DNA of 64,000 nt from a virus. Of this stretch, positions 40,481 through 58,800 are shown piece by piece. The DNA lies in IMG/VR virus record IMGVR_UViG_3300035682_000017, positions 17,704 to 81,703 of that record. One strand, written 5' to 3'. A program made the translations under genes and the position numbers. The notes under the pieces were generated by a model, which ran no database searches, was not told the DNA's origin, and worked only from the letters and a program-made list of their open reading frames with translations. Positions within the stretch are counted from its first letter, which is position 1; the number at the start of each line of letters is the position of its first letter.

Positions 40481-43400
40481 ATGGCAAATGAAATAAATCC
40501 AGGTAAACCTAAAAAAAAAGTTGACTCTTCTGAATTAGCAGACAAACAAGCATCTATAGCAACCGGTAAAGAACTTGGAAAATTAAGAGAGGGTAATTTT
40601 AAAAATGCTATGCAAGGTGGTCAAGTAAGTGCTACTAAAGTTGGTGTTGATAGATTTATTACTTACGGAAGTAAGACTTTTGGAAAATTAGGATTTGATC
40701 CAAATAGAGATAATGCTGAATTTTATAACAACCGAACTTCTACTAGTGATGAAATGTGGAGAAGTGTTAAAGGTGCTTGGAATTTAGCAGGTGTTGGTTT
40801 TCAAGATAGTATTTTTCTAGGTGCAGTTTCTGATAAAAATTCTTCTCAAAAGTTTTCAGACATCATGGCTGATTACCAAGTTGATGAAAGAAGAGGTAAC
40901 ACTGCATTTTGGGGAAACACTATTACTTCTGCTGGATATACTGCTGGTATTATTGGAGCTATTGCTATTGAAGAAATTGGATTAGGTATTGCTACTGGAG
41001 GTTTAGGATTACTTGGTTCTGGTGGTATTATTGGAAGAGGTGTAGATAATATCTTTACAGGTTTAGGTAAAAGTAAACTTGCTAAAGTTGCTGGTGGTGG
41101 TAGAACTCATATTGAAATGATGGAAGGCCTTGCTGAAGTTGAAAGAGCAAGAGAAGCTTATGACAGTTATAGCAAGTTAAAAAAAGTTGGACTTAGTTTA
41201 GGTGAGTTTGGTAAAGACATTGCAAAAGGTTTAAATCCTATTGGTAATACTGCTGGGTTTTTAAAAGACCTAGAAAAAATGAATGATGTTAACGGCTTTG
41301 TTAAAATGGCAAATGGAGCTGGAGCTTTATACAGAGATGCTAGAAAGTTTACTATGACTCATAGTGAATCTAAACTAGAAGCTGAAATGAACTCAAAAGA
41401 ATTTTTTAATAAAGAACTTGATGCACTATATAAAAAGAATCCTGGTGCAGAAATATCCGAATTAGATCTTGAAGATTTAAAATCTAAAACTCAAAATGTT
41501 TTTGAAAAAACTTACAACGCCAACTTTGCTTTAATCTATGCAACAACTGCAATTGCTTTTGATAATGTTTTCCGTAACTTAAAGTTTAATCAGAATTGGT
41601 TAAAATCTGCAGAAGCTGGTAAAAACTCTATGAGAAATATAGGTAAGTCTTCGGCTGAATTTGTAACAGAAAACTTAGGAATTAATTTATCAAGAGGTTT
41701 AAAAAATTATGCTAAACGTACATTTTCTATTGGAGGATTAACTAGAGCCACTTTAGGAAATATTGCAGAAGGTTACCAGGAATTACAACAAGATGGTATT
41801 TCAACTAGTGCTGTTAGTTTTGCTAAAAGAAGTAAGGTAACAAAACAAACTGAAGGTAACTATTTTACAAATCTATACAATGAGTTAGCAGACAATTTTG
41901 ATTTTGTTGCTAATGGATTAGAGTATAAATTTATTCCTAAAACAGGAAGAGAATTAAGTACGTTTTTATCTGGTGCTTTTATGGGTGTAATTGCTTCTCC
42001 AGTTTCTATGGTTACGCAAGGTGCTCAAAAACTCACACTAGGAAAAGGATACAAATCTTTTTCTAAATCTTACAGAGAAGAACAAGCTAAATCAAATAGT
42101 AAAAATCAAGCAATTGCTAAAGTTCTTAACATGACCTTTAGAGAAAATCTTGATAAAGCTTACGATGTAGTTAACAAGCCTTTATTTACACAGATAGAAC
42201 TTCAAGAAAAAATTCTTGAGGCTGTTGAAAAAGGAGATACAAAAGCATTAGAAGATTTAAAAGATGCTACTTTTGCTGTGCAAGCAAACATGTTGTTAGA
42301 AACAAATGCAGATGAGGATTTTGCTGAACATTTAGATCAAGCTGCTTCAAAACTTAATGATTCAGAATTAGCAGAATTTTTAGGAAGAACTAACATTGAT
42401 GCAGAGAACTCTTCTAAAGTGCGTAAGGTTTTAAAAGATAAGGCAACTACTCTTAAAAAATTAAGAGCTGTTAAAAATGAAATTGATGCTAATGTAGTTT
42501 CTCCAATTAATCCAAATCTTTTAAATAAGAAGGATCCAGAGTATGCTCAAAAATATCACACATACCAGGCGTTTCAATCATTGAAAAAAGAGTTGTTATA
42601 TTCTCATGCTGCTATTTTGCAAAATGTAAATAGAACAGAAGGAATTAGAAGTAAACTTTTAGATAACTCAAAAAATATAAATTTTAGTTCATTTGAAGTA
42701 GAAGCGTTATTAAGTAGTGCTGATTTAAAATCACAAGTTGAGTTATTAAAAACTGAAATAGAATCAGTTAAATCTATTGGTTCTAGTAGACCTGAATCTA
42801 AAAAAGAATTAGAAGTTTTAGAAAAAAAACTTGTGGCTTATACAGAGTATCAAAAAGCATATGAGAAATTAAAAACAACTAAGGATTCAAATTCGGAAGA
42901 ATATGCAGATAGTGTAGATGCTGTACAAGAAGCTTTTCAAAATGTTGCTAAAGCATATAATGAAAGAACTACAAATAGATTCTTAGAAGTTGAAGGTATG
43001 TCTACAGACATTGTTGATTACTTAACTTTAGGTGAAGAAAGAGATGCTTTACAACAACATGTAAACCTTTTAACAAATAAAGATTACGCTTTCAATTTTA
43101 TTACAGAAGCTGAAAAACAAAATAAAAAAGCTTTAGCAAATCTTCAAAATCATATTGAAGATTCATTAAATGAATTTGATAAAAGAAAAGCTGCTAATAC
43201 CATGATGAAAATATTATCTGAAAAAGGAATAATATTTGACATGAATGAAATTGATGACTTATTTGAAAAAGGAATAATGCCATCAAAAATTTATGATATA
43301 GCAAAAAATAGTTTTGCTAATTCAAAACAAGTAGCAGAAGCACAAACCATTATTAGTTCTATTTATAAAAACCTTACAGGTAAAAGTATTTTAAATGATA

Positions 43401-46400
43401 AATCTAAAATAACAAGAGCTGGTTCTCAAAGAGCTGACAATGATACTAGAACTGTTAAAAATATCATTAAAGAATATGGTCTTAAAATGGATGAAGACAT
43501 TGATTTGTCTACTCCAGCTGGTAAAAGAATTATTAAAAAAGTTCTAAATTCAAATAAGTTAAGAGCAACAGATGTTGAAATATTAAATGAACTTCTTGAA
43601 AAAGGTGGTATAATTAAATTTGTTACTAATGCTGAATTGCCAATTACTTTTGAGAAAGGTGTTACAACTATTGATTTAAGATTTGCTGGAGCTGATTACA
43701 AAGGAACCACTTTATCTTTTGAAGGATTATTTACAACAGCATTACTTCAGGATAAAGTTGCTAGAAGAATTACAACTGATTCTGAATTTGCAGGTGAGGT
43801 AACGCAGTTAATGCAACAAACTAAACAATCACTCATAGATAAAGATCAAAGTGCACCAGCAGCTTTCTTTACGGATCCTGTGTTGTTTCTAGTTGAAGCT
43901 ATGAACAATAGAGCTTTGCAACGTGAAATGCAATCTATTAAAGATGACACACAAGTTTCAGAAAAAAGTATTTGGGCTTCCATGGCTGCGTTAATCAAAC
44001 GTATAATTAAAAGCACTTTAGCAAATGATACTCTACTTGAGAGAGCAGTTTACTTAACTAAGACCGCAACTTCAGATGGAGAACTTATTAAAGTTGAGGC
44101 AAAAAATGAAGAGGAATCTGCTGTAGAAACTGAACAAGAAGTTCAACAAGAAGAACCTACAACTGAAACTGAACTTGGTTTTGAAACAGATCCTGTTCTT
44201 GATTTAGAAAATAGAATTGATCAACTTAAAGTTGAATTGGCAGTATATGAAAATGAATTACGTAAAGTAAATAAACTTACTTCATTTAGAAAGTACTCCC
44301 AGCTTCAAAAGAAAATAGCTGGTTTAAATATAATGATTAATGATTTATCTGTTGAATTAAATGATCTTGTACCTGCAGAAGTTGTTGATAAACCAAAACC
44401 ATTTTCTCCAGTTAATAGAGTAGCGGATGAAGATCAGTATGGAAATATTATTCTAAATGAGAATGCTCCATTAAATGCTTTTCCAAAAGACATACTTAAT
44501 GAACTTTCTAATATCTATGGTAAAGATGTTACTACTTTAAAAGATTATGAGGAAGAAGAATTAAGAAAACTTATATCTCAACATCCTTTAATTATTAAAA
44601 TATTGAAAGCTCACAATGATGATGTCTATTCAATAGCAGATGAGTATGCTATTCTTACTAGCAATGAACAGGCTATGGAAGAAGGCAAACTTCTTGCTGA
44701 AAAAAGAGCAGCTGCACGTGAAAAAAGTATTCAAGACAACAAAGAAGAAGCACGTAAAAATGCAACTTTACAAGAAGACATGACACCAAAAGATATACTT
44801 TGGTTTAAGTTTGAACAAGCAGGTTTGTCTACAGATAATTTAAGATTGTTAACTGACAAGCAAGCTGAAACTCTCTTTGTTAAAGTGCGTGCAAAAGAAC
44901 TTGATCTTAATGATGTATTTAAGTTTGTTGAAAAGAAAAAACTTTTAAAAGACCAAAGAGCTACTAAAAAGTTTCAAAAAGAATTAGACTTATTAATTAC
45001 TAATGAGCAAGAAGATTTAGATAAGCAAAAAGAAAAAGAAGAGGCTCTTCAAAAAATAATTGATGAAAACAGAAAATTATTATCAGGTAAAAACATTAGA
45101 AGACGTAAAAAGATTTCTGAAAATAGATCAAAAGTTGTAAAAACAAATGTTCCAAAATCACATATTTTATTTTATGAAACATACTTTCCAGAAGTTTTAC
45201 TTATTGAAGATGAAATTAAATTTATTGAATTTATAAACAATGTTATTAAAGCAAGAGTTAACAATGGTAGAGTAAAAGCTAAAGCTGCATCTTTTTCAAA
45301 AAACAAAAATGAAGCATTAAATCAACTTGTAGATTTATTTATTGAACTTGATCACGCTAAAGAATTATTTCCTACAGTTGCAAATACAATTAATAAACAA
45401 CTACGCGCATCTAATTTACCATATAGAATTACTATGACTCCTACTAATAAAGGTGAACAACTGGTTGGTAGTATGTATAAAATTAGACACGTAGGTGATA
45501 TTAAAAAAAGAATTTCTAAACCTAAAAGAATACTAGGAGTTAATGATATTTTTAACTATTCTCAAAAAAGAGAGTTTGTTAAAAGTTATTTACCTACAAA
45601 TCTTAATGGAGAAGCTGCAGTTGAATTAGCAGTTATTCAATGGTTTTTAAATGGTGGTCGCGTTAGTTCTGAATTTATAACTTCTCAAGTTGGTTCAGAT
45701 TCTTCAGAGTTAAAAGCTAAAAAATCATTAATTAGTGCTAATGGTAAAAATAGATTGGATACAATCTTAGATGATTATATAGATATTTTAGATGTTGACA
45801 TTACAGAAAATGTTGCAATTTCTTTGTTAAATGATTACAGCACCATTAAAGAAATGGTTGAAGGAATGTTTGATGCTATTAAAGCTAACATTGATTCTGA
45901 AGAAAATCAACAAGGTGGTTCTGAAGATGAAAATTGGAATAACTTTATTAATTCTGAAGAGGGATCTGATTTCTTAAAAGATATGTATGAAGATGCTAGT
46001 ACTTATGAAAAAGAAGAACTCAACTTACTTGAATTTTATGCAAGCCCTGAAGGTAAAAAATATACAGATGCCTACAATAAAAATGTAGAATCTTATTACA
46101 ATTCCACATTATTTCAAATTGAAATGGGTGCTTTTGAAGGAGATCCTAACACTTTAGAGGGTGCGGAAAGAGAAGCTTACATGACGGCTGTAAAAGAAAA
46201 TCGTTATGAAAACAAGTTAAACCAGGATGAGAATACTGATGATACTGAAGATGTTTCACAAAAACCAAAAAAGGAAACTGCTGAAACTAAAGATGCATTA
46301 ATTTTTGAAGAAAAATTAAATAAAGAATTTGATATTTTTTACAATAAAGTTTTAACTGAAAGTTCTGGGGATTTATTTAACAAGCCAAACTTTGTTTTTT

Positions 46401-46894
46401 ATAATACAGCTGTTGCCAAATTAGAAAAAGATTTTACACTTAAAAATTTAATTTTAACACTTGCTGCATTTAACCAGTTTGGAAGCATTACACCTGCTCA
46501 ACATCAAAAGTTTTCAAGTGAGATGGTGAATAAAATTAGTGAAATTTCTACTGCTAATTCAAAGGAAATCCTTATTATTAATAATAAGGCTTATGAATTA
46601 TTACCTGGATTGAATAACAAACAAGTTCAATTAAAAGAAATTGGATCTGATGAAATTATTCTTAAATCATTTGAAGAACTTCCATTAGTAGTTTCAAATG
46701 TAAATGTTTCTGGAGATAATGTTAAATCTAAAACTGCTGTTGATGTAGAAAAAGATGAAGAATTTGAACCTGTTAAAGATGCCCTGTTGAATGTTTTTGG
46801 TAACTTTAAAAAACTTTTTGAATCAGGTGAAATTCCTGATAATTTGAATGGTATCAAAGAAGAAATAATTAAAAACTTAAATAACTGTAAGTAA
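40481..46894 (+). CDS. Giant ejection protein with putative membrane-spanning segments (2137 aa)
   Basis: Gly-rich hydrophobic stretch AGYTAGIIGAIAIEEIGLGIATGGLGLLG, EGYQELQQ motif, long coiled coils, degenerate zincin-like domain. Directly upstream of RNAP. Confidence 0.7.
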   Translation: MANEINPGKPKKKVDSSELADKQASIATGKELGKLREGNFKNAMQGGQVSATKVGVDRFITYGSKTFGKLGFDPNRDNAEFYNNRTSTSDEMWRSVKGAWNLAGVGFQDSIFLGAVSDKNSSQKFSDIMADYQVDERRGNTAFWGNTITSAGYTAGIIGAIAIEEIGLGIATGGLGLLGSGGIIGRGVDNIFTGLGKSKLAKVAGGGRTHIEMMEGLAEVERAREAYDSYSKLKKVGLSLGEFGKDIAKGLNPIGNTAGFLKDLEKMNDVNGFVKMANGAGALYRDARKFTMTHSESKLEAEMNSKEFFNKELDALYKKNPGAEISELDLEDLKSKTQNVFEKTYNANFALIYATTAIAFDNVFRNLKFNQNWLKSAEAGKNSMRNIGKSSAEFVTENLGINLSRGLKNYAKRTFSIGGLTRATLGNIAEGYQELQQDGISTSAVSFAKRSKVTKQTEGNYFTNLYNELADNFDFVANGLEYKFIPKTGRELSTFLSGAFMGVIASPVSMVTQGAQKLTLGKGYKSFSKSYREEQAKSNSKNQAIAKVLNMTFRENLDKAYDVVNKPLFTQIELQEKILEAVEKGDTKALEDLKDATFAVQANMLLETNADEDFAEHLDQAASKLNDSELAEFLGRTNIDAENSSKVRKVLKDKATTLKKLRAVKNEIDANVVSPINPNLLNKKDPEYAQKYHTYQAFQSLKKELLYSHAAILQNVNRTEGIRSKLLDNSKNINFSSFEVEALLSSADLKSQVELLKTEIESVKSIGSSRPESKKELEVLEKKLVAYTEYQKAYEKLKTTKDSNSEEYADSVDAVQEAFQNVAKAYNERTTNRFLEVEGMSTDIVDYLTLGEERDALQQHVNLLTNKDYAFNFITEAEKQNKKALANLQNHIEDSLNEFDKRKAANTMMKILSEKGIIFDMNEIDDLFEKGIMPSKIYDIAKNSFANSKQVAEAQTIISSIYKNLTGKSILNDKSKITRAGSQRADNDTRTVKNIIKEYGLKMDEDIDLSTPAGKRIIKKVLNSNKLRATDVEILNELLEKGGIIKFVTNAELPITFEKGVTTIDLRFAGADYKGTTLSFEGLFTTALLQDKVARRITTDSEFAGEVTQLMQQTKQSLIDKDQSAPAAFFTDPVLFLVEAMNNRALQREMQSIKDDTQVSEKSIWASMAALIKRIIKSTLANDTLLERAVYLTKTATSDGELIKVEAKNEEESAVETEQEVQQEEPTTETELGFETDPVLDLENRIDQLKVELAVYENELRKVNKLTSFRKYSQLQKKIAGLNIMINDLSVELNDLVPAEVVDKPKPFSPVNRVADEDQYGNIILNENAPLNAFPKDILNELSNIYGKDVTTLKDYEEEELRKLISQHPLIIKILKAHNDDVYSIADEYAILTSNEQAMEEGKLLAEKRAAAREKSIQDNKEEARKNATLQEDMTPKDILWFKFEQAGLSTDNLRLLTDKQAETLFVKVRAKELDLNDVFKFVEKKKLLKDQRATKKFQKELDLLITNEQEDLDKQKEKEEALQKIIDENRKLLSGKNIRRRKKISENRSKVVKTNVPKSHILFYETYFPEVLLIEDEIKFIEFINNVIKARVNNGRVKAKAASFSKNKNEALNQLVDLFIELDHAKELFPTVANTINKQLRASNLPYRITMTPTNKGEQLVGSMYKIRHVGDIKKRISKPKRILGVNDIFNYSQKREFVKSYLPTNLNGEAAVELAVIQWFLNGGRVSSEFITSQVGSDSSELKAKKSLISANGKNRLDTILDDYIDILDVDITENVAISLLNDYSTIKEMVEGMFDAIKANIDSEENQQGGSEDENWNNFINSEEGSDFLKDMYEDASTYEKEELNLLEFYASPEGKKYTDAYNKNVESYYNSTLFQIEMGAFEGDPNTLEGAEREAYMTAVKENRYENKLNQDENTDDTEDVSQKPKKETAETKDALIFEEKLNKEFDIFYNKVLTESSGDLFNKPNFVFYNTAVAKLEKDFTLKNLILTLAAFNQFGSITPAQHQKFSSEMVNKISEISTANSKEILIINNKAYELLPGLNNKQVQLKEIGSDEIILKSFEELPLVVSNVNVSGDNVKSKTAVDVEKDEEFEPVKDALLNVFGNFKKLFESGEIPDNLNGIKEEIIKNLNNCK

Positions 46895-46895
46895 C

Positions 46896-49800
46896 ATGAA
46901 AATTTGCATTACTCCCAATTCTATTAAATTATTCTACGTTTATTTTGAAAGCATAGCTCCTAATTTTAAATTAGATAAAAGCACTTTACCAGAAACATTA
47001 AAACTGTTTTATGATAAAGCAATGGATGATTTTTCAAGTAGTTCTCAAAATAAAAAAGAATTAACTGAATTGGTACTACAACATTTAAGCATTTTGCCAA
47101 AAGTTTTACAATCAGAACTTGTTCTAACTTCAAATAGAGATTTGGTAAAAAATGTAAATAATTTACAATTAGAAATTGAATCTGGTATTTTAGAAGGTAG
47201 TGGAAAATTAATTGATGTAATTAATAATATAAACTCAATGATTGGCAATGGTCCAATCATTCCTACAGTGTCACAAAATGATGAAGATGATTATAGATTT
47301 GATGCTATATCATTTGAGTTTAGTAAAACTAATAATCAAGACACTGAAGTATCTTCTTTAAATTCTTTTAAGGATAACATTAAAAGTGAAAATCAAACTT
47401 TGACTACTAATGTTACGATAAACATTGTAAAATCTAACAATGCTAAAAATTATAAATTTAAAGCATTCTTATTTAAAGATGTAGAGTCTTTAGTTTCTGG
47501 TGAGTTAGATAAAAACTTTTTACCAAATGATTTTGTTATGCTTGTTGTTGATGCTAATAACAACATAGTAAAGTTTGATAATGCTGGCGTTGAATCTGAA
47601 AAAGGAATTGTTCCTATTTATTGGACAAAAGTACTAGGTACTGAATTTTCATTTAAAGCAAACAACTTGGCTTTAATCTTCTCACAAAAATATAAAATAT
47701 CAATTAATGAGGCAGAGAAAATTGTTGCTAGTAAATTAAAAGAGCATTTATCTAAAATTGAATATATTAAAACCAATCTTGAAAAAGGAAATGAGGTAAC
47801 TATTCCAATTGATATAAACAATAGTTCAGTAGGGTTCATTGAAAAGTCTTTTGTTGAAAGATTCCCATTGTCTAATATGACAAACCTTGGTGAAGTTAAA
47901 GTTGTACTTAAACAAGATTCAAAAAGAAGAAGTGCTTTAATTATTCCTGAAAAAGGTAATGAGTCTTTTCCAATTTCTGGAACTGAATTAGGACCAATGT
48001 TAACAGAAGAATTTTCTGAAGTTCTTTTTTCACTTGCGTTTGCTCCAAACCTTCTTTATAAAAATTCAAACGGAAAAGTTTTTTCAAGTGTACTTGGTAT
48101 AAGTGAAAGGAAAGAAAGATTAAGCACTTTACTTAAAGGGGTTTTAATTTCTTCTGTTGCAATTAAAAGTGAAAATCCAAATGAAAGACCTGTTATTAAA
48201 AATCAAGTTATTTTTGGTAACTATTCTTTTTCATATACGTATGATACCAAAAACAATGAATATACTTTTGACAATGGTGTTAAAATTGAACAAGTAAAAA
48301 ATTTATTCAATGAATTTTTAAAAGAAGATGACATCATTTTAACTAAACTTGATCCATCTAATCCTAAAATTTCTTCTAAGTTAAAAGAAAATAGAGCTTC
48401 TGCAAATGCAGGTGATTTCTTTATTGAAAATGACTCTGTTTATTTTAAAACAAAAAAACTTGTAAATCTTGGTATACCTACAGGTGTTGTTAAAGCTGGA
48501 GTTGATTCACCAGTTATTCGTGTACCAGTTTCATCAGAAATATCTGAATCCGGACAGAAAGTTATTGTTTTTGATTCTTACAGTTTGAGTGATTTTGTTA
48601 AAACTTTTGGAACAACAAACTTGATTCCAAATAAAAACAATGAACTTGTAGCTAACTATCCTTATTTAACTTTTGGTAACCCAATGGTTAAGTTAGAAGA
48701 AAACAATACTGAAGAAGATGAAACTTTATTTCAGTCACTAGCTGATACAGTTAGACCTACTGGTTCAAGTGAACTTCAGGAAGCTGCTCTAAAGTGGTTT
48801 CAAAATCATCCATTAAGCAAATTAATTTCATTAAATATTTCAGATCAAGTTAGTGCAAAAGGTCCAAACTTTGTTGCTAACTTTTTAAACAATGCTATTA
48901 CTTTGTACAAAGGCTCTTTAAATACTGATATATTTCACGAGTCTTTTCACGCATTTACACAATCTGTTTTATCACCAAAAGAATTAGAAGCATTATATTC
49001 TAAAATTAAAAGTACGCCTGGTTATTTTACAGTTGTTGTTCATGGTGTAAAAAAAGAATTGCGTTTTGATAAAGCAAGTAATCTTGAAATTGAAGAGTAC
49101 CTTGCTGAACAATTTAGAATGTATGCTCAAAACAGAACTACTTCTTCTAAATTAAGTGTACAAGTAAAAGAATTTTTTGATAGACTTTTAACACTCATCA
49201 AATCTATTTTTGGTGATATGCGTATTACTGATGCTGTAAATTTGAATAGGTCTAGCAAGTTGGCTTCTAAAACATTTGAGGCTTTATTTTCTGGAAATAT
49301 AAACCTTTCAAATTTTAGACAATCAAGTACAGATGCTTTATGGAAATCAAGTGAAATTGATACAGACTTTTCAATGGAAGAAATCCATGTAATTATGGAT
49401 TCTATGAAATCTTTGTTTAATGAGTTTGTTACATACGGTGTTAACTCAAACAACAAACCTTTATTAAACTTGATGATGCAATTATCTGAAGTTAATGAGG
49501 AGTTGGAACCAGAAAAATATAATAAGATTAAAGAAGAACTTTCTTTAAAACAAAATTCAATTAGAGATAAATATACTGCACGCGGTTTATTTTCTGTACA
49601 AACAAATTCAGAGTTGTTTAAAACAGGATTAACTTATATTAAAAACAACCTTATCCAGCAAAGAAATTTATTAGATAAAAGATATTCTGAAAATCCAAAC
49701 AACTTGAATTTTAAATTTGCAGCAGATGTATTAAACAAAGCTGTATCTAATTTTGGAGATGAGCAAGAAGCATTTAATGAAGTTCCTACTGAAAAAGGAT

Positions 49801-52800
49801 ACGCAACTATTTCTGCATTATTTTTAAATAACTATTCCAACTTAAATTTAAAAACTGTTTCTAAAGAAATTGAAACAAGTCAAAATAATTTAGATGGTGA
49901 ACAAGAATTACAAGAAAGAAATGATGAAGACTTGGCGTTAAATGAAGATCCAACATTGGACTTTAACAAAAATGGTAATGATGAAAGCATCCAGGACTTA
50001 ATGGATAATCATACTAAAGAGCTTCTTTCAAATGTAACTAAGCATACTAAAAATGGTAAGGGTGTTCCAATGTTAAATCAACTTGGATTTAAAAAAGCAT
50101 TGCCATTAGAAAACATGATTGCCAAAACTGCAAAGTTATTAGCAAATACAATTAGTCGTATTGACATGTATAATAAGCTTAAAGAAGCTGCTTTAAAAGA
50201 TGGTGAGTTTAAAGAATTGCTTTTTAAACTTGGAGATCCTTCTTCTGCAAATACAACTTTGAGTGAGCAAAAACAATGGCTTGCATTTTGGCAGGCAATG
50301 AATAAAGCTGATATTATTCTTAGACAATTTGTAATTGAAAAGAATGATGTAATAAATGGTAAAGAATCTTCTACAGAGTTATTAATGTATTCTGGTAGAA
50401 CTGTTGCAGACTCTCTTTATATTGGTAGAGAATGGGCTGCTAACTTTAATGAGTTATTAGAGTTAAGTCCTTATGCAAAAGAAGATGAGAATGGAAAAAA
50501 ATACATTGATGTAAAAATGTTTTTTGAAGAATTCCAACCTGAACTTCCTGTCTACAGTGTAAAAGATCCAGCCTCAACTTTAGAACCATATCTTACACAT
50601 GCTGAATACATCCGTTCAGTAAACAAAAAAGAATATGAAAGCTCAAGAGCATTAAAAGCATATTCAGAACCATTTGAATTTTTAAATGCTTTTGGAATTG
50701 ATCTAGTAGATGATTCAGCTGTAAGAGATATTATTAGAAAAGGTTCTAAAAACTTTAAGTTTGAACCTTTATTTTTATCATACATTGTTGATTCTTTAAA
50801 AAACAAAATTGAACAAAATGATGGTAAGTTATACAGGATGGATGAAATCTTTAGCGCATTTAACTTTAAAAATAAAGATGGTGTTTACATTCAACAACCA
50901 GCAACATATACAGTTAAAAATGCTTTACAAGAATTGCATTCTCAATTTTCAAATGACAATGTATCCTTCATGGCTACAACTTCATACAATGAAAAGAAAT
51001 CTGAAAAAGCATTAAACTCATCTTTAACTGTTGAATTAAATGCTTTAAAGAAAGCAAACACGTATGAAGAGTTAATTGTTATGCCAGGAATGAGAAAGTT
51101 TGACATAGATTTAAACCCTTTTGTTGGTGGCAATAGAGCATTTGTTCAATTATTTAATTTGGATAACGCTAATCCTATTATTAGAGGTACAAAAAATAAA
51201 AACATTGAATTTAAACTTGAAGATTTAACTGGTTCAAAAGTTAAATACAATTTAAAAGTAACCAATGATGGTGAAACTGTTACTTCTGAAAATGAAAAAG
51301 GTGTTTCTTCTATGGCTTCTGATGAAAATACAAAATTCATTACAGATTTTTATACCACTTTAGAAGGTATACAAGAATTACCAAGGATGGAAGCTAAGTC
51401 TTCTTCATTTGCAATGTTTAATACACAATTTGTAGATGAGCAATTACGTGGTAATAAAACTGGAGATAAAAATAGAAAATTGATTTTTGAAAAAAATGAA
51501 ATCAATCAGATATTTTCTAAAGATTATACTGGTGATTTTTTATATCAACAGTTTAAAGGGCATTTAAGTGCAGAGATGATTCGTATCCAAAGAATAAATA
51601 AACTTGAATCTGAAATTTTAAATTCAGATGAGGAATTTATTTTTGATTTTGATTATTTGAATAGAGCAAAAGACTTTATGATTTTTCAAAATTTATTAAG
51701 CAAGGATGTTAAAAACAAATTAAAAAAATTAAACTTAGATCAACTTTCAGTTCTTCAAGTAGAATCTTTATTTTCTAAAGAACTTATAGCTGATATTGAA
51801 AAAGATCTAGTTGTTTACTTTAAATCAAAATCTAAAAACATATCTAAAAATTTCAACAACATTCCAATTAGCAAATCTATTTTGGAAGAGTATACAATGT
51901 TGAATCAAGATGAAGTTGTTTTATCTGAAGAGGATGCAAAACAAGTTATGTTTGATACATTTACAACTAACAACTTTATAAACAATTTAAACTTTGTTAC
52001 TTTGTTTATTGGTGACATAGGTTTGTTTAAAGTAACAGATGAAGATTTTCATAAACGTAATGCAGGTATCATTTCTAGTGGTAAAATTTCTGCAGTAGAT
52101 GAAGCGTTTTTAGATTTTGTTAATGGTGCTACTTTTAACAACTATGGTTTTGCTAAAAAGTTTAATGGTGAAGCAAAAGATAAAAGTTTTTATTCCTATG
52201 ACGGTAAACTTAATACTGCAGTATTAGAAGAATCTAAAGCAGATTCTAAATACATTGATACATTTAGAGAAATTATAGGAAGCAAAGCTGAATCATATTT
52301 AGGTATGGAAGAAGCGGATGGTCAAGGTTGGATTACTTTTGATTCATATAGATTGTTAAATTTATCTTATAATGAATGGTCTGATGAACAAGAGGCACTT
52401 TACCAAAAGATGTTATCTGGTGAGAACTATTCTCAAGATGAAATTTTAGCAACTTTTCCTGTTAGAAAGTTTCAATACTTTGGTCACGTTACTAATGATT
52501 TAGGTGTGTCTGCATCTTTATCTACAACAGCATTCCACAAGTATTCATTAATGCCATTAATACCTGATTTAATTAAAGGAACTAAACTTGAAAAATTAAA
52601 TGAGAAATTAATGCGTGAACATATTGATTACGCGGTAATGAAGTCTGGTTCTAAAGTGTCTAGTTTATCAAGAATAACAAGAGTAAAAAAGGCTGATGGT
52701 ACTTATGAATTAAAAAAAGAACTTGACTTATTTTACAATAAAGATAGAGAGGTAATAGATGAAAAACCATTTATCAAAAATATTATTGATGCTACTCATT

Positions 52801-55800
52801 TAAAAAATGTTGTGTTTTTAGGAGAAGGTTTTAAAGGAAAAATTCCTTTACCAACTCAAATGCGTAAAATGATTCTTCATGGTTTAATGGAGAATGGTGT
52901 TCCAGTTGATTATAAAGGTGCACCAGAAGAATGGAATGCATTAAGTGAAAAAGAAAAACTTAAAAATAAATACTACCAATGGTATCAAAAATACGCTTCT
53001 ACTATTAAAAAATTGAGAGATGTATTTAAAAATGAACTTTTGGATGACATCTCTATGAAATGGGATGAAAAAAAGAAAATGTATACAGGTGATACAACTG
53101 CTATTGTTAATTACATTAAAAATGAATTAGAAAAAAATGACTTTTTACCACATGAAATAGATGGTATTGCTGATGTAAATGGTCACTTAATTGATGATTT
53201 ATCTTTTGATTTAAACAGTCAAAAAATTGAAAGCATTTTAACTGCTCTTGTTGATAAACGCCTGCGTAAATTTAAAGTAAATGGTGAAGCAATGGTTCAG
53301 GTATCTGGTGCAATGTTTGAATCAAATGGAGGTCTTGGAACATTTGCTAAACCTACGGATGAACAAATGGTACAATTCAATGGTACAAATGATTTAAAGT
53401 TTTATCCAATAGAAAAAGATGCTGAAGGCAATGTTATCATTAGCGCAATGGAAGTTAAAATTTCATTGCAAGGAGATTTTAAAAATTTAATTTATTTAAA
53501 ACATCCAGACAAAAATGTTATTGCTGTTAAAAATGCTGATGGTAAAATTGACATGGAGGCTTCTCGTTTAAGATTAAATGAGGCAATTAAAGACCGTGCT
53601 TGGAATAATAAACATAAGAATCTTTTACAAATGCCAGGTGTTCGTATTCCAACACAAGGGCCAAATGCATTAGATGTTGCTATTGTTGCTGAATTTTTAC
53701 CTGAATGGGCTGGACCAATAGTTATTCTTCCTTCAGAAATGGTTATTAAAACTGGTGGGGATTATGATATTGATAAAATGTTCTTCATGCTTCCAAGTAT
53801 ACTGCGTAACAAAAAAGATGGCGCATCCTTATATGAGTATGAAGAATTAACTACTTCTTATGAAGAACTTGATGCTGAAAAAACGGTTTTAACAAAAAAT
53901 ATAAAATCTACATCTGAAAATATTGACAACCTGTATAAAGAAAAATCAAAATTATATTTAACAAATAAAGATATTTCTGAAGAGGTTAAAGAAGAGTTTG
54001 AAGCTGAAAATTTAAAAATTGGAAAAGCAAAAAAACAACTTGCATTTTTAAAAGAAAATTTACAAAAAATTAAAACGGTTCCTTTAAATGAAACTAAACG
54101 TAAAAGATTAATTGAAGAAAATGAACTTCAAAGTATAACACTTGAAGAATTAATTATTTCAATTAGAAATGAAAGAGAAAAAAGACAAGCAGAATTATTA
54201 AGTTTTGATACAGGGGTTTCTAGTTATAAATCTGCAATGGATTCATTTGTTTTACAAATTAAACTTGAAGAAGATGTATTGCAAAAACTACTTGATAGAA
54301 AAGAACAAATAGTTTTATCAATGAAACAAAGTTCTACCAAAGGTTTGGAAAATGAACTTTTAAGATTGATGGTAGATAAAATTTTAGATACTAATAACAT
54401 AAAAGATTTACTTACACCAAATGGTACAGAAGAAGCTAAACCTCTTTCAAAAAAATTAGAAAGAGTTTTAAATAAATCATTTAACAAGTATGAAAAAATA
54501 CATGATGAGATTACAGATCCTTTAAAAATATCACCAACAACTCTATTTGATTATGAATACAACTTGCAAAAACAACAAGAAAATTCAGTTGGTAAAGATG
54601 CATTAGGTATTGCTGCAGTTGTATCTACATTTTATGCATTGTTTACAACATTTGATTCTAAGTTAAATGGTCCAACTATTGAAGCATTAGACTCATTTAA
54701 AAAAGCACTTTCTTCAAGTGATCCAAAAGGTATTGAAAAGTTTAGAGGATATGCTATTAAATTATCTCACAACTATGTTGAAAATACATTACAAGGCAAT
54801 AAGATAAAACAAGTTGCATTAGGAAAAAGATATAGTTCTGAAACAGATAAGAAATTAATTGCGGATACTATTTCACAATTGATTAATGGATTTGTGGATG
54901 TTGCTAAAGATGCTTGGGTGTTTAACATTCAGGGAAATAAAGAAAATTCACCAACTTTATTGTTCATGATAATGGCTGGCGTTCCTTTAGAAGATGCTGT
55001 TTATTTATCATCAAACCCTTTAGTTTTAGAATACAATAAAATTAAAAAAGAAATGCAGGGTGTATATTCTAAAGTGAATTACGAACAAGGTGATCCAATT
55101 GTTGAAAATGGTTTTAAGTTAAATGAGTTAGCTGGAAAGGCTCTTTTAGATAAGTATCCTACACTATTTAAAAAATACAAAGGATTAACTCCACATGCAA
55201 TAAACAACATAACTGAAGGAGATTTTTCTAATGACGCACTTTACAATAGAATTGGTAAGACTCCAACTGAAGAAGATATTATATATTTTGCACACTATGT
55301 TGAAATAGAATCTATCTCTGGTGACTTAACAAAGTTTCAACAAGCTAATAAGCACGATACAACAAAAGTTTCAAACATCACTGATGCTGAAAATAACATT
55401 GTTAAAAATGAAAACTTTTTTAGATATAGAAGTGCAATTCCAAGAGAATGGGAAGACTTGTTTAAAGAAAATCCAATTGGTGTATTTAATGCTAATGATT
55501 TTATTGTACAAGTATTTAAACAGTTCTTTAAAATTAAAAACAACCCTGTTGTAAATCAACTTGCAATTGAATTTTCTAAATCTGAAAATGTTAAAAAGAT
55601 TGTTGGTAAAGCAGATACTTCAAGAAATGCATTTAAAAATGATTTCATTTGGTTCTTATATCAAAATGCTGTTTATAATAGTAATAAACTTTCTTATTTT
55701 AATGAAGAGGGTAATTCTGTAACAAACACTTTTATTGAAGATGATTCTATTAATAAAGCAATTGAACTTAATTTTGAAGAAGACAGTGATAATATAAATA

Positions 55801-58800
55801 TTACTTACAGTCCATCAAAAATTAGCCAGGAGTTAGCAATGACTACTGATAATTTAACTAGATCCGTATTTATAAATAAAGGCAAACCTGATATTTTAGA
55901 ATATGCTAAATACAAGTACTTGTTTACAGAGTATAGTGCAATGTTTTCCAATGTTAGTGAAGAAGAATTAAGAAGCAAATATTACTTCTTGGCTTCTAAT
56001 AAATTTACTAAAACTCATTTAATAAAAGCTATTGTATTATATGATTTAAAAAGTCCAAGAAGTTTGTTTAATTCTTATGTAGGTGCAGGATCAATAATTA
56101 AAAAATTCATACGCAAGCATCCTGATTTAAAAAACTATTCATTTATTTCAGATTTAAAATTTGATGATGATTATGATTCTTTCAAATCAAATATTTATTT
56201 ACCAAAAAACACTGGTAAAAAATTAATGCAAACTTATCTTGAAAATATAAATGAGTTGCGTAATCATACAGCACCGGAAGTTGCTGAATTTTTTAAAGGT
56301 TTTGACAACTATTTAGTTATGCAGTCAGGTTTAAATGCGGCTTCTAAATATTTTATGGGCCCATTGATTTCAAAAGGATATGTTTATAACACAGCCGCAT
56401 CTCAATTAGATTTTACATCTATGGAAGATTTGTTTAAAGTTTCTTATGATCAGTTTAAAGAATTTGGAAATAGTTTTTTAAGCTATGAATATAAGGATGG
56501 TAATAAGATTGTAACAGATTCTGTTAAATTAGGTTTACTAGAACAGTTTTCTGAATCAATTTTTAATGTTGTAAATAAAAATGGTTGGAGGCAACGAGGA
56601 AGAGGTGTTAATTATGTTCAAGATAAACCATTGAATTATGGTGGAGTTAAAACTGTTAAAGAAACTCCTTTGACATATAGCAATGTAAGTTTCTTTAATA
56701 ACATGTCTGATATAAATATTAGTGATTACGACTTTATTTTTAATCCGGCTTCAATTTTTGAATCTGAATTTGAAAGTATTGATGATGTTGTTGAGATGTT
56801 AAAACCTTTTGCTGATGATAAAGTAGCATTTCCAAATTATAAAATAATTGTTCCAGAAGAAACTTTATTTACACAAAAAGAATTTGATGATTTCCTTTTA
56901 GAGTATTTTGGTATTGACAATACAGGAATGAGTCCAAATGCAATTCCAAAATCTAAAATTGGCAGGTCTTCTAATATGACCATTTCAACTGTTCCTTCTA
57001 AAGTGAAATACGAATGGTATTCAGATGAAATAATCTCTTCAAATTCTACAAAAGCAATTGCCTTTGAAAGTAAACAAGCACCAAAATATGCAAGTAAACA
57101 TAAAAATTACATTGATGCATTAGAAGGTTTTGTAAACAAAGATTTCAATGCTGATGATGCTGTTTGGATATTTGGTGCATCTTTAAGAAGTGAAGCATAT
57201 TCAGATAAATCTAAATCAGAATACGAACAGGTATTGACTGATGATTTTAACAATAAATATGTTGGTGAGATTGATAAAGCAATTGCTTCAGGGGTAACTA
57301 AATTTTTAACAGATGCTAAGAATACAGGTATTTCTTTAAGAGCTGGAAACCATTTACTTGCACAAGGTTTTAAAAAGGTTGTTACATACGGAGCTAACTT
57401 TGAAAAGTATTACTCTTATTATAAATCTTTATCAGATGTTGATTCACAATATTTTGATCCAAGTAATTCTGAAATTTCTATAAGTGATCTTAAAATTGAC
57501 ATTCACATAAATGCAATTTCTAAAATACTTACTAAAAAGTTTTTTGAATTATCAGAAGAACAAGTTGCTAATAATGGTGCAAGTTTTGTAGAGGGTATTG
57601 TTAAAGCGTATTTTTCTGATAAACTTGGGGAAAAATTAAATTTTGCTAGAAATTTATACATGTCTAAAAATTCTCCATTAAAAATTGGAACTTCACCTGC
57701 AGCTGTGTATTTAGAAAAATATTTAATGGGAAGTTTAATTCCAGCATTAGATAAAAAGTTTAATGTAGCGACTGATCAACCATCTGCTAGTGTTAAAGAA
57801 AGAAAAGTAAAAGTTGTTGCTGACGGTATTAAAGTTATAGATAATGCAATTACACAAGAAGAAGAGTTAGAATTATTTACAGCTATAAAACCTTTTTTAG
57901 AATCACAAGGTGTTCAATCAAACATAGGAAAAAATGCTCCTATTATGATAGGCTTAGGACTTAGATGGGATTACACATCAAACAATCCAGGAAAAACTCC
58001 TGTTGAATTAGGTGAAACTATAAACAATAGTGAATATCAAAAGAATAAATATAGATACTATCTTGTTTCAGCTGACGGTCAACCTTTAGGTGATATTTCA
58101 CCAAGAATAAAGGAGTTAATGACTAAAGCTACTGGTATTGATGCTACCAACTATGATGGTGCAATTATAAATATATACCCTAAAAATTCTTTTATATCTG
58201 CACATAATGATGTAGATGAATCAGTTACTGCAAAACAGTATCCTGTATTAGTTGTAAATATAGGGGGTGAGGGTAGTTTAAGTGTTGAAGGTTCTAAAAG
58301 CCAAACTGCTAAAAAAGGTTATTCTGAAAAAGAATATACAGATACTCCTTTATCTACAGGTTCTGCTTATATTTTTGGAGAAGGTGGTAAAAATAGAGAT
58401 GTATTCCATAGAACTTTACCGTCAGCTGTTAAAGGTACACTGCCTGAATTAAACATTAAAGGTAAAATTATTCCTGCTAATTCATATAGAATGACGATAA
58501 CATTAAGAAGAGTCATGCCTTTAGAACCAGGAATGCTTACAGTACCAGCTAAAGCTACTACTCAATCATCTACTAGTAGAAAAACTTATTCTGGTAAAAT
58601 AACTGAATTAAAAGATAAGCAAGTATTTGTATTTGGAAGCAATCCTTTAGGTATTAATGGTAATCCTGCTAAAGGTACAGGAGGTGCAGCATTAGTTGCT
58701 TACAATATTGCTGGTGTAAAACAAGGTGAAAAAATGGACAACATTCTTTCTGATTCAGGAAAAGCATATGGTATAACTACTGTTACAGCTCCTGGAAAAC

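What the first reader, a model, noticed from the sequence alone, without database searches (positions are those of the whole stretch)
57822..58514. Catalytically intact AlkB dioxygenase fused to the virion RNA polymerase
Seen: all Fe/2OG ligands (HND, distal H, RMTITLR) in frame near the C-terminus of the 4109-aa RNAP. Established: AlkB enzymes oxidatively remove alkyl groups from DNA/RNA bases, some plant RNA virus replicases carry AlkB, and crAss vRNAP is injected with the genome. Inference: the polymerase brings its own base-repair or demodification enzyme to clean the template or early transcripts before any phage gene is expressed, or to counter a base-modifying host defence.
Basis: partly seen in the sequence, partly recalled or inferred. 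Interest (0 to 1): 0.8.

Follow-up and report, generated by a model that had tools for sequence, protein, structure and literature searches.

The report
AlkB cassette on crAss virion polymerase
A lake-water crAss-like phage carries a complete AlkB-type DNA/RNA de-alkylating enzyme as a swappable module on the tail of the giant RNA polymerase it packs into its particle, so the enzyme probably enters the host together with the phage DNA.

Summary
Observation confirmed. Window 57822-58514 is in frame in one 4109-aa ORF (46896-59225). It encodes an AlkB-family 2OG/Fe(II) dioxygenase: Pfam PF13532 is above its cut-off, and the NxY, HxD, distal H and RxxxTxR residues are conserved across 101 relatives. 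The AF2 model (pLDDT 90.6) superposes on E. coli AlkB (Z 22.6, rmsd 2.1 A).

The same ORF is homologous to the proven virion RNA polymerase gp66 of Cellulophaga phage phi14:2 (E 1e-28), including the DxDxD site. It lies downstream of crAss portal, capsid and muzzle genes.

The fusion is no artefact. Contigs of two other studies bridge both joints. Of 100 AlkB-bearing giant metagenomic proteins, 94 also carry the polymerase region.

New here: AlkB sits in a 266-aa cassette (57762-58559). A relative whose backbone is 98.8% identical carries an unrelated cassette in the same slot. The next module (A1S_2505 family) has a macrodomain-like fold, best match DarG.

The design is that of the published 'polyvalent proteins', here on a crAss-type polymerase. 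Six library searches found no paper describing it.

Most likely function: removal of alkyl adducts from single-stranded phage template DNA or early RNA. The substrate is untested.

This scan has noted the same theme before on other DNA (29 notes, at least 22 genomes).

The parts
46896..59225 (+). Single 4109-aa ORF: crAss-type virion RNA polymerase homologue with N- and C-terminal extensions
   Evidence: only two Cys, at aa 4 and 4108
48936..48950 (+). HESFH (HExxH) motif, aa 681-685, a possible zincin-like peptidase site
   Evidence: HExxH is present in 66 of 89 homologous segments; no Pfam hit, so the peptidase identity is unproven
51801..53798 (+). Region aa 1636-2301, homologous to phi14:2 gp66 aa 815-1373 (catalytic part of the virion RNAP)
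   Evidence: BLASTP E 1e-28, 25% identity; tblastn finds 109 phage records; those listed or tallied by name are crAss-like or phages of Bacteroidota hosts
53760..53774 (+). DYDID (aa 2289-2293), aligned with gp66 DFDID 1361-1365, the metal-binding catalytic motif
54726..55031 (+). Second stretch (aa 2611-2712) aligned to gp66 aa 1561-1656. By offset this places the end of the gp66-like body near aa 3240
   Evidence: BLASTP E 4e-6
57762..58559 (+). 266-aa AlkB cassette (aa 3623-3888): the part that differs from the near-identical relative P0004
   Evidence: Contigs of runs X2 and X3 bridge both joints; in X5 and X6 a 4313-nt contig ends at 57762
57777..57791 (+). Upstream linker DNA (Q-P-S-A-S), imperfect direct repeat of the downstream linker (13 of 15 bases)
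57822..58514 (+). AlkB-family 2OG/Fe(II) dioxygenase domain, aa 3643-3873
   Evidence: Pfam PF13532; AF2 pLDDT 90.6; E. coli AlkB Foldseek E 2.8e-13 and Z 22.6, rmsd 2.1 A over 186 aa
58203..58211 (+). H-N-D (H3770, D3772): first two iron ligands
58407..58409 (+). Distal iron ligand H3838
58488..58508 (+). R-M-T-I-T-L-R (R3865...R3871): 2-oxoglutarate-binding arginines
58563..58577 (+). Downstream linker DNA (Q-S-S-T-S)
58587..59036 (+). A1S_2505-family module with a macrodomain-like predicted fold, aa about 3898-4047
   Evidence: NCBIfam NF049995 53.2 bits, cut-off 45; phrog_2072; AF2 pLDDT 84.4; DarG macrodomain Z 10.7, TARG1 Z 10.3; Foldseek macrodomains at E about 3e-3
59037..59225 (+). 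C-terminal tail ending ...NCK plus stop

Best explanation
The segment encodes a functional AlkB-family Fe(II)/2-oxoglutarate dioxygenase. It is built as an exchangeable 266-aa cassette into the C-terminal extension of the phage's crAss-type virion RNA polymerase polyprotein. Shown here: the domain identity, the full ligand set, the AlkB-like fold, the fusion, its recurrence in metagenomes, and the cassette swap. Inferred: the polyprotein is packed in the capsid and ejected into the host ahead of or with the DNA, as in phi14:2 and crAss001. Inferred: once there, the AlkB module uses host Fe(II), 2-oxoglutarate and O2 to oxidise N-alkyl groups (1-methyladenine or 3-methylcytosine type) off unpaired bases. 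These would be bases of the single-stranded phage DNA that this kind of polymerase reads, or of its first transcripts, and the module would act before any phage gene is expressed. The neighbouring macrodomain-like module would remove ADP-ribose adducts in the same way. Together they would form a pre-loaded 'adduct eraser' kit against environmental alkylation or host base-modifying defences. Which modules a phage carries varies between close relatives.
For: Domain: PF13532 scores 48.7 bits against a cut-off of 31.2. A profile of 30 relatives hits OsALKBH1 at E 1.8e-6 with NxY, HxD and R..TfR aligned, then ALKBH2 and E. coli AlkB weakly. The AF2 model has pLDDT 90.6 and pTM 0.89. Top Foldseek hits are E. 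coli AlkB, E 2.8e-13. VIA gives Z 22.6, rmsd 2.1 A, 186 of 200 residues for E. coli AlkB and Z 21.7 for OsALKBH1, with a gap to every other ALKBH (Z 15.6 or less). The ligands are conserved in at least 90-98% of 101 domains, together with the D-E pair after HxD.

Polymerase: BLASTP to phi14:2 gp66 gives E 1e-28, and KTGGDYDIDKMFFMLPS aligns with KTGSDFDIDKMYVMLPN. gp66 carries DFDID 1361-1365, is a virion protein, and transcribes single-stranded or denatured DNA but not double-stranded M13 DNA, with only weak transcription of native phi14:2 DNA (passages of 10.1101/2020.03.07.982082). crAss001 polymerase-associated proteins are capsid cargo (passages of PMC10172136). Context: portal and capsid PHROGs and the crAss muzzle protein PF25731.

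Recurrence: of the 120 giant proteins listed, 100 carry this AlkB. Of those 100, 94 also match the polymerase region by an iterated profile and 86 carry the strict GxDxDxD motif, with AlkB downstream in 79 and upstream in 7.

Cassette: P0004 is 98.8% identical over aa 1-3628 and 97% identical after aa 3889, but has a different 374-aa insert. AlkB is 70-77% identical in proteins whose polymerase region is only 22-46% identical or undetectable.

Neighbouring erasers: a macrodomain-like fold follows in this ORF, and NADAR follows AlkB directly in P0022.

Assembly: contigs of two other studies bridge both joints with no differences.
Against: No activity, substrate, packaging or ejection was measured for this protein. 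The NCBIfam equivalog models for bacterial AlkB are far below their cut-offs (21.2 bits against 231; 12.5 against 267), so it is not an orthologue of E. coli AlkB and may have another substrate. OsALKBH1 ties structurally with E. coli AlkB, so a different methylated base remains possible. The cassette is dispensable: P0004 lacks it, and none of the 109 phage records with the polymerase homologue has it, including phi14:2, whose polymerase works without it. No host defence that alkylates phage DNA is known to me (recall, not searched). The macrodomain assignment rests on a predicted fold with a middling Z of 10.7 and no Pfam hit. Whether the polyprotein is cut at the linkers is unknown.
Confidence: 0.6

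Rival explanations
1. Epigenetic eraser rather than repair enzyme. The injected AlkB would remove enzymatically placed methyl marks such as N6-methyladenine. It would act either on host DNA, stripping protective methylation so that host restriction enzymes cut their own genome, or on phage DNA, to escape modification-dependent restriction.
For: OsALKBH1 ties with E. coli AlkB as best structural match (Z 21.7 against 22.6) and is the best sequence-profile match. Iyer et al. 2021 proposed this role for sporadic AlkB-like genes of jumbo phages (passage of PMC7824862). The cassette's sporadic, swappable distribution looks like a conflict gene. That OsALKBH1 is a 6mA demethylase is my recall, not a call.
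Against: A few injected enzyme copies would have to demethylate thousands of genomic sites quickly. The D-E pair after HxD, which by recall reads the exocyclic amine of 1mA and 3mC in E. coli AlkB, is kept. None of the ten largest ORFs of the first 17.8 kb of the contig matched a methyltransferase family, but only 68% of the genome is held.
Confidence: 0.17
2. RNA-directed demethylase. Like the AlkB domains of plant RNA virus replicases, it would act on RNA only: on the polymerase's own early transcripts, or on host tRNA or rRNA to reprogramme translation.
For: BFVD fold hits include AlkB domains inside replicase polyproteins of ampelo-, viti- and foveaviruses. The domain is tethered to an RNA-making enzyme. 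ALKBH5 and ALKBH3 are lower-ranked fold matches.
Against: RNA-specific ALKBH5 scores Z 15.5, against 22.6 for E. coli AlkB. The neighbouring modules in this protein and in relatives (macro-like, NADAR) belong to families shown to reverse DNA base ADP-ribosylation (abstracts of PMC11543638 and PMC11257639). This rival overlaps with the best explanation, which already allows early RNA as a substrate.
Confidence: 0.15
3. Inactive passenger or purely structural filler of the cargo polyprotein.
For: The cassette is dispensable in a near-identical relative.
Against: All ligand residues are kept in at least 90-98% of 101 domains, which are down to about 45% identical overall. The domain is far better conserved than the polymerase body.
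Confidence: 0.04
4. Assembly chimera joining a separate AlkB gene to the polymerase gene.
For: Logan contigs are fragmented here. In runs X5 and X6 a contig ends exactly at the cassette edge, 57762, and several loose ends occur.
Against: Contigs from two other studies bridge both joints without any difference: X2 57437-57828 and 58060-58670, X3 57652-58335 and 58431-58834. 94 of 100 AlkB-bearing giant proteins from JGI, ENA, Logan, TARA and NCBI sources have the same kind of fusion. The break at 57762 is explained by the alternative cassette seen in P0004.
Confidence: 0.01

Closest known systems
Escherichia coli AlkB (for example PDB 4ZHN, 3I3M, 2FD8)
   Same: Best structural match: Z 22.6, rmsd 2.1 A over 186 of 200 residues, including the N-terminal lid region. 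Same NxY, HxD(x)DE, distal H and RxxxTxR pattern.
   Different: About 19% identity. The NCBIfam AlkB equivalog models fail by a wide margin. Here it is not a free cellular repair enzyme but a cassette inside a 4109-aa virion polyprotein. A single-sequence search of 1.84 billion representatives finds only 204 relatives, most of them inside long proteins.
Oryza sativa ALKBH1 (PDB 5XEG, 5XOI)
   Same: Best sequence-profile hit (E 1.8e-6) and a structural tie (Z 21.7).
   Different: A eukaryotic protein with extra N-terminal parts; 20% identity.
AlkB domains inside replicase polyproteins of plant RNA viruses (ampelo-, viti-, foveaviruses)
   Same: An AlkB fold fused in one polypeptide with the virus's own polymerase machinery (BFVD hits).
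   Different: Those are RNA viruses of plants with RNA-dependent polymerases made after entry. Here it is a dsDNA phage with a DNA-dependent two-barrel polymerase that is pre-packaged in the particle.
Cellulophaga phage phi14:2 gp66, the crAss-type virion RNA polymerase
   Same: Homologous catalytic region and DxDxD motif. Same three-giant-gene arrangement as g067-g066-g065.
   Different: gp66 is 2180 aa and has no detectable homologue of this AlkB (no tblastn match in the phage collection). This protein adds about 820 aa at the N-terminus and about 870 aa at the C-terminus.
Polyvalent proteins of phages and conjugative elements, including N4-type virion RNAP fused to zincin peptidase, ART, lysozyme or PBECR domains (Iyer et al. 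2017, PMC5512222)
   Same: One injected polypeptide combining unrelated enzyme activities, including a polymerase to start transcription and a conserved HExxH region. Relatives carry the ART-PolyVal domain itself.
   Different: There the polymerase is the T7-like single-subunit N4 type. The main text never mentions AlkB, 2OGFeDO, dioxygenase, crAss or YbiA. I could not see the supplements, which may list more domains.
Phage-encoded antitoxin-like erasers against DarTG (NADAR, DarG-like macrodomains)
   Same: The module after AlkB has DarG's macrodomain as its top fold match, and relatives carry NADAR next to AlkB. Phages are known to use such enzymes to undo ADP-ribosylation of their DNA (abstracts of PMC11257639, PMC11481870, PMC13309987).
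   Different: Those are free proteins made after infection. Here the module is fused to virion cargo, and its activity is unproven.

Membership tests
AlkB family of Fe(II)/2-oxoglutarate dioxygenases (Pfam PF13532) | Match to the family HMM above the curated cut-off | tested here: met
   48.7 bits (segment) and 42.2 bits (whole ORF) against a cut-off of 31.2; 47.7 bits in the six-frame genome search
AlkB family of Fe(II)/2-oxoglutarate dioxygenases (Pfam PF13532) | HxD...H iron-binding triad | tested here: met
   H3770, D3772 and H3838, each kept in at least 98% of 101 domains. HxD aligns to that of OsALKBH1
AlkB family of Fe(II)/2-oxoglutarate dioxygenases (Pfam PF13532) | 2-oxoglutarate contacts: NxY upstream and RxxxxxR at the C-terminal strand | tested here: met
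   N3759, Y3761, R3865 and R3871. N, Y and the last R are invariant or nearly so, and the first R is kept in at least 90%
AlkB family of Fe(II)/2-oxoglutarate dioxygenases (Pfam PF13532) | Double-stranded beta-helix core with an AlkB-type nucleotide-recognition lid | tested here: met
   On a predicted model only: pLDDT 90.6; E. coli AlkB Z 22.6 over chain residues 17-212; Foldseek E 2.8e-13
AlkB family of Fe(II)/2-oxoglutarate dioxygenases (Pfam PF13532) | Oxidative dealkylation of nucleic-acid bases | not testable with these tools
   Needs an enzyme assay
Bacterial AlkB orthologues (NCBIfam TIGR00568, NF011930 equivalogs) | Score above the equivalog cut-off | tested here: not met
   21.2 bits against 231 and 12.5 against 267. 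It is a separate clade of the family, not an AlkB orthologue
crAss-type virion RNA polymerase (phi14:2 gp66 type) | Sequence homology to the gp66 catalytic region | tested here: met
   BLASTP E 1e-28 over gp66 aa 815-1373 and E 4e-6 over aa 1561-1656
crAss-type virion RNA polymerase (phi14:2 gp66 type) | DxDxD metal-binding motif at the aligned position | tested here: met
   DYDID 2289-2293 aligned to DFDID 1361-1365
crAss-type virion RNA polymerase (phi14:2 gp66 type) | Position in the virion module of a crAss-like genome, flanked by two other giant genes | tested here: met
   Portal and major head protein, muzzle protein PF25731, giant ORFs 40481-46894 and 59225-64000; compare g067-g066-g065
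crAss-type virion RNA polymerase (phi14:2 gp66 type) | Packaging in the virion and RNA synthesis | not testable with these tools
   Uncultured phage; needs virion proteomics and a transcription assay
Polyvalent proteins (Iyer et al. 2017) | Two or more domains of disparate biochemical activity in one polypeptide of a virion or late-gene context | tested here: met
   Polymerase + AlkB + A1S_2505/macro-like module in one ORF. Relatives add NADAR, ART-PolyVal and cpYpsA
Polyvalent proteins (Iyer et al. 2017) | Zincin-like metallopeptidase module for processing | tested here: inconclusive
   HESFH at aa 681; HExxH kept in 66 of 89 homologous segments; but no family or structure match was obtained
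Macrodomain (for the module after AlkB) | Macro fold with an ADP-ribose-binding cleft | tested here: inconclusive
   Predicted fold: the top 27 rows are almost all macrodomains, led by DarG at Z 10.7, rmsd 3.0, 131 aa. Foldseek gives only E about 3e-3. No Pfam macro hit. Binding residues were not checked

The most novel reading that the evidence does not exclude
The polymerase tail is a pre-loaded pair of nucleic-acid 'adduct erasers': AlkB for N-alkyl groups and a DarG-like macrodomain for ADP-ribose. They travel with a polymerase that reads single-stranded DNA. The AlkB cassette would then be the counter-measure to a still undescribed class of host defence that alkylates or methylates unpaired bases of incoming phage DNA, a methyl analogue of DarT. 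Because AlkB needs O2, the cassette would circulate only among phages of aerobic waters.
Probability: 0.2. Interest if true: 0.85.

Novelty: new variant of a known kind. Interest (0 to 1): 0.6.

Why it matters
A direct-reversal repair enzyme would act in the first seconds of infection, delivered as protein, on the very template that a virion polymerase must read. That is a new use for the AlkB family. It would also extend the 'polyvalent protein' design from N4-type to crAss-type polymerases.

The cassette polymorphism between near-identical lake phages gives a natural experiment for asking what selects for it: environmental alkylation, chemical defence, or an unknown base-modifying immune system.

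This AlkB clade is almost confined to giant phage proteins (204 representatives). Its substrate is therefore an open and directly assayable question.

Tried and rejected
- Single-sequence PDB searches found nothing useful: the AlkB segment, the whole ORF and the neighbouring giant ORFs. A profile and a predicted fold were needed.
- Megablast of 55000-59225 and tblastn of the AlkB segment against 50,697 phage records gave no match.
- I suspected the 1646-aa ORF might be the real polymerase because of phrog_37948. Rejected: it is the crAss muzzle protein.
- To fetch DNA of cassette variants I tried search for related loci with the region just upstream of the cassette (aa 3150-3623), in viral and metagenome contigs. 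Neither gave a confirmed relative. So the cassette swap is shown at protein level only.
- The Cdom profile against PDB by sequence gave nothing below E 1.
- Search for long DNA repeats flanking the cassette: only the 15-nt imperfect pair, 13 of 15 bases. The pattern search was built from those two sites, so it is no independent test (3 matches against 0.57 expected).
- A peptide-linker pattern near AlkB occurs upstream in 15 of 97 full-length domains, downstream in 15 of 97 and on both sides in 7, against 0.9% of background 45-aa windows. It is enriched but present in a minority, so a universal joint is not shown here.
- Depth drops inside the cassette in X5 (36 to about 13) and X6 (67 to about 28) and recovers after 59035. 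This hints at mixed cassette genotypes, but contig word depth is not a sound measure, so I use it only as a hint.
- The first 17.8 kb of the contig was screened for methyltransferases, ten largest ORFs only; none was found.
- The region aa 3150-3642 and the N-terminal 860 aa gave no NCBIfam hit.
- Literature: six searches and term look-ups in PMC5512222, PMC9503650 and PMC7824862 found no description of AlkB on a crAss-type polymerase.
Full report
**What is in the sequence.** The window holds one uninterrupted ORF, 46896-59225 on the + strand, of 4109 aa. The flagged stretch 57822-58514 is aa 3643-3873 of that ORF, in frame. The reverse strand is closed by stops. Pfam's 2OG-FeII_Oxy_2 model (PF13532) matches at 48.7 bits (E 1.4e-12) on the segment alone and 42.2 bits in the whole protein, against a cut-off of 31.2.

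**Is it an AlkB, and is it intact?** A single-sequence search of the PDB found nothing.
- A profile of 30 relatives found OsALKBH1 (5XEG) at E 1.8e-6, with NxY, HxD and the terminal R..TfR aligned. ALKBH2 and E. coli AlkB followed weakly.
- An AlphaFold2 model built on that alignment is confident: pLDDT 90.6, pTM 0.89.
- Foldseek ranks E. coli AlkB structures first, at E 2.8e-13.
- VIA-align gives Z 22.6, rmsd 2.1 A over 186 of 200 residues for E. coli AlkB and Z 21.7 for OsALKBH1. Every other ALKBH scores Z 15.6 or less.
- Across 101 domains of this clade, N3759, Y3761, H3770, D3772, E3775, H3838, T3869 and R3871 are kept in at least 98%, and R3865 in at least 90%.
- The NCBIfam equivalog models for bacterial AlkB fail by far (21 bits against 231).

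So this is a distinct clade of the family, not an orthologue of E. coli AlkB. A search of 1.84 billion representative proteins found only 204 relatives at E 0.001 or better. Most sit inside long proteins, and a few of 240-270 aa may stand alone.

**Is the host protein the virion polymerase?** PHROGs and Pfam gave no polymerase name.
- tblastn of aa 1450-2400 found 109 phage records. The organism tally is Bacteroides, Flavobacterium and Cellulophaga phages, CrAssphage and uncultured phages. One of them is phi14:2 g066, annotated 'Catalytic RNA polymerase subunit'.
- BLASTP to gp66 gives E 1e-28 over gp66 aa 815-1373 and ends in KTGGDYDIDKMFFMLPS against KTGSDFDIDKMYVMLPN.
- The gp66 preprint names DFDID 1361-1365 as the catalytic motif. 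It shows that gp66 is a virion protein and that it transcribes single-stranded or denatured DNA efficiently, but not double-stranded M13 DNA, and native phi14:2 DNA only weakly (passages).
- A second stretch (aa 2611-2712) aligns to gp66 aa 1561-1656. By offset the gp66-like body ends near aa 3240, so AlkB lies about 400 aa beyond it, in a C-terminal extension.
- The surroundings are those of a crAss-like virion module: portal and major head protein, muzzle protein PF25731 and two more giant ORFs, as g067-g066-g065 in phi14:2.
- The record is an 81.7-kb linear viral contig, about 68% complete. It is held by lake and freshwater metagenomes from 14 studies.

**Is the fusion real?** Logan contigs of two other studies bridge both edges of the AlkB cassette with no differences. 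X2 covers 57437-57828 and 58060-58670; X3 covers 57652-58335 and 58431-58834. Independently, I examined the 120 giant proteins (2293-6564 aa) listed.
- 100 carry this AlkB by phmmer.
- 94 of those 100 also match the polymerase region with an iterated profile. That profile was iterated within the set and could drift.
- 86 of the 100 carry a strict G-x-D-[FY]-D-x-D motif. AlkB lies downstream of it in 79, at a median distance of 1021 aa, and upstream in 7.

**A swappable cassette.** P0004 (4225 aa, JGI) is 98.8% identical to this protein over aa 1-3628 and 97% identical from aa 3889 onward. Between those points it carries an unrelated 374-aa insert with no Pfam hit, in place of AlkB. The differing part here is aa 3623-3888, window 57762-58559.
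- In runs X5 and X6 a 4313-nt contig ends exactly at 57762, and word depth falls within the cassette. This is only a hint of mixed genotypes.
- AlkB is 70-77% identical in proteins whose polymerase region is 22-46% identical or undetectable, while the protein with a 99.7%-identical polymerase region has no AlkB.
- The cassette is bracketed by similar short linkers, Q-P-S-A-S and Q-S-S-T-S, with 13 of 15 bases identical. Comparable linkers flank AlkB in a minority of relatives: 15 of 97 on each side, against 0.9% background.

**Neighbours and relatives.** The next module (aa about 3898-4047) belongs to the A1S_2505 family (53.2 bits, cut-off 45) and to phrog_2072.
- Its model (pLDDT 84.4) resembles macrodomains. 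DarG of M. tuberculosis scores Z 10.7, TARG1 10.3 and Thermosipho DarTG 9.1, and nearly all the top 27 rows are macrodomains. Foldseek is weak, at E about 3e-3.
- By my count of the precomputed Pfam column, relatives carry NADAR (16 of 120), PF13604 helicase-type modules (19; the family name is recalled), DUF7831 (10), ART-PolyVal (5), RNase H (2) and cpYpsA (2).
- I confirmed NADAR directly after AlkB in P0022, and ART-PolyVal plus cpYpsA in P0096.

**Mechanism.** Shown: domain identity, ligand set, fold, fusion, recurrence and the cassette swap. Inferred from phi14:2 and crAss001: the polyprotein is capsid cargo that is ejected into the cell. Inferred from established AlkB chemistry: the module oxidises N-alkyl groups on unpaired bases.

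gp66-type polymerases read single-stranded DNA. By recall, AlkB substrates such as 1mA and 3mC arise in single strands and block polymerases. The most economical reading is therefore template or transcript cleaning at the start of infection, beside an ADP-ribose eraser. Phage enzymes that undo DarT's ADP-ribosylation of DNA are documented (abstracts).

Against a core role: phi14:2 and the other phage records holding the polymerase homologue have no detectable homologue of this AlkB, and P0004 swaps it out.

AlkB needs O2. The holders I could place are lake runs and two TARA-labelled proteins, and the gut crAss-like phages in the collection lack it. A restriction to aerobic waters is my inference.

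**Known or new?** The design is that of polyvalent proteins. Iyer et al. 2017 describe N4-type virion polymerases fused to a zincin peptidase and to ART, lysozyme or RNase domains (passages). Their main text has no mention of AlkB, 2OGFeDO, dioxygenase, crAss or YbiA. The 2022 NAD-ADPr survey has none of crAss, AlkB or A1S_2505. The 2021 jumbo-phage paper notes sporadic free AlkB-like genes. Full-text searches for crAss with AlkB, 2OG-Fe, dioxygenase or polyvalent returned nothing relevant. Supplements were closed. JGI's automatic names already call several of these proteins AlkB. This scan has noted the same theme 29 times in at least 22 other genomes, and those notes agree with what I tested here.

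**Verdict.** A real, probably active AlkB cassette sits on a crAss-type virion polymerase. It is a new variant of a known kind, and its substrate is unknown.

Noticed in passing
window 58587-59036: The module after AlkB (A1S_2505 family, phrog_2072) has a macrodomain-like predicted fold. Its best match is the DarG antitoxin macrodomain (Z 10.7), so it may be a pre-packaged ADP-ribose eraser against DarT-type defence.
   Followed up: partly
P0004 aa 3623-4002 (the relative's insert at the slot of window 57762-58559): The alternative 374-aa cassette has no Pfam hit. By eye it holds two sub-modules split by another TQSSTS linker. One has an HSGGAKGYD motif that recalls SLOG-type domains; that is recall and was not tested.
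   Followed up: partly
window 46905-46907 and 59217-59219: The 4109-aa protein has only two cysteines, at aa 4 and 4108. 106 of 120 relatives have a Cys within their last four residues and 55 within their first six. This may be a docking or disulphide handle between consecutive cargo proteins, as another first-reader note suggests.
   Followed up: partly
window 48936-48950: HESFH motif in the N-terminal extension. HExxH is kept in 66 of 89 homologous segments. It is a candidate zincin-like processing peptidase, as in N4-type polyvalent proteins, but no family match was obtained.
   Followed up: partly
window 56343-57761: About 470 aa between the polymerase body and the cassette have no Pfam or NCBIfam hit and are shared by only 3 of 120 relatives. 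By eye the stretch around ...DAVWIFGAS... could be another degenerate nucleotide-binding module. It was not folded.
   Followed up: no
window 57762-59035 in runs X5 and X6: Contig word depth falls to about 40% inside the AlkB cassette and recovers afterwards, and a contig ends exactly at 57762. This suggests that cassette genotypes coexist in the same lakes.
   Followed up: partly
window 24555-29495: This 1646-aa ORF is the crAss muzzle protein (PF25731, 92 bits; phrog_37948), which fixes the phage as crAss-like.
   Followed up: yes
L004:5718-6134 and L004:6893-7513 (contig bases before the window): A SegE-like GIY-YIG homing endonuclease (E 6e-18) and a WDGH-domain protein (E 6e-33) lie in the early region. 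There is also a weak, sub-threshold hit to 'nucleotide modification associated domain 1' at L004:6137-6604.
   Followed up: no
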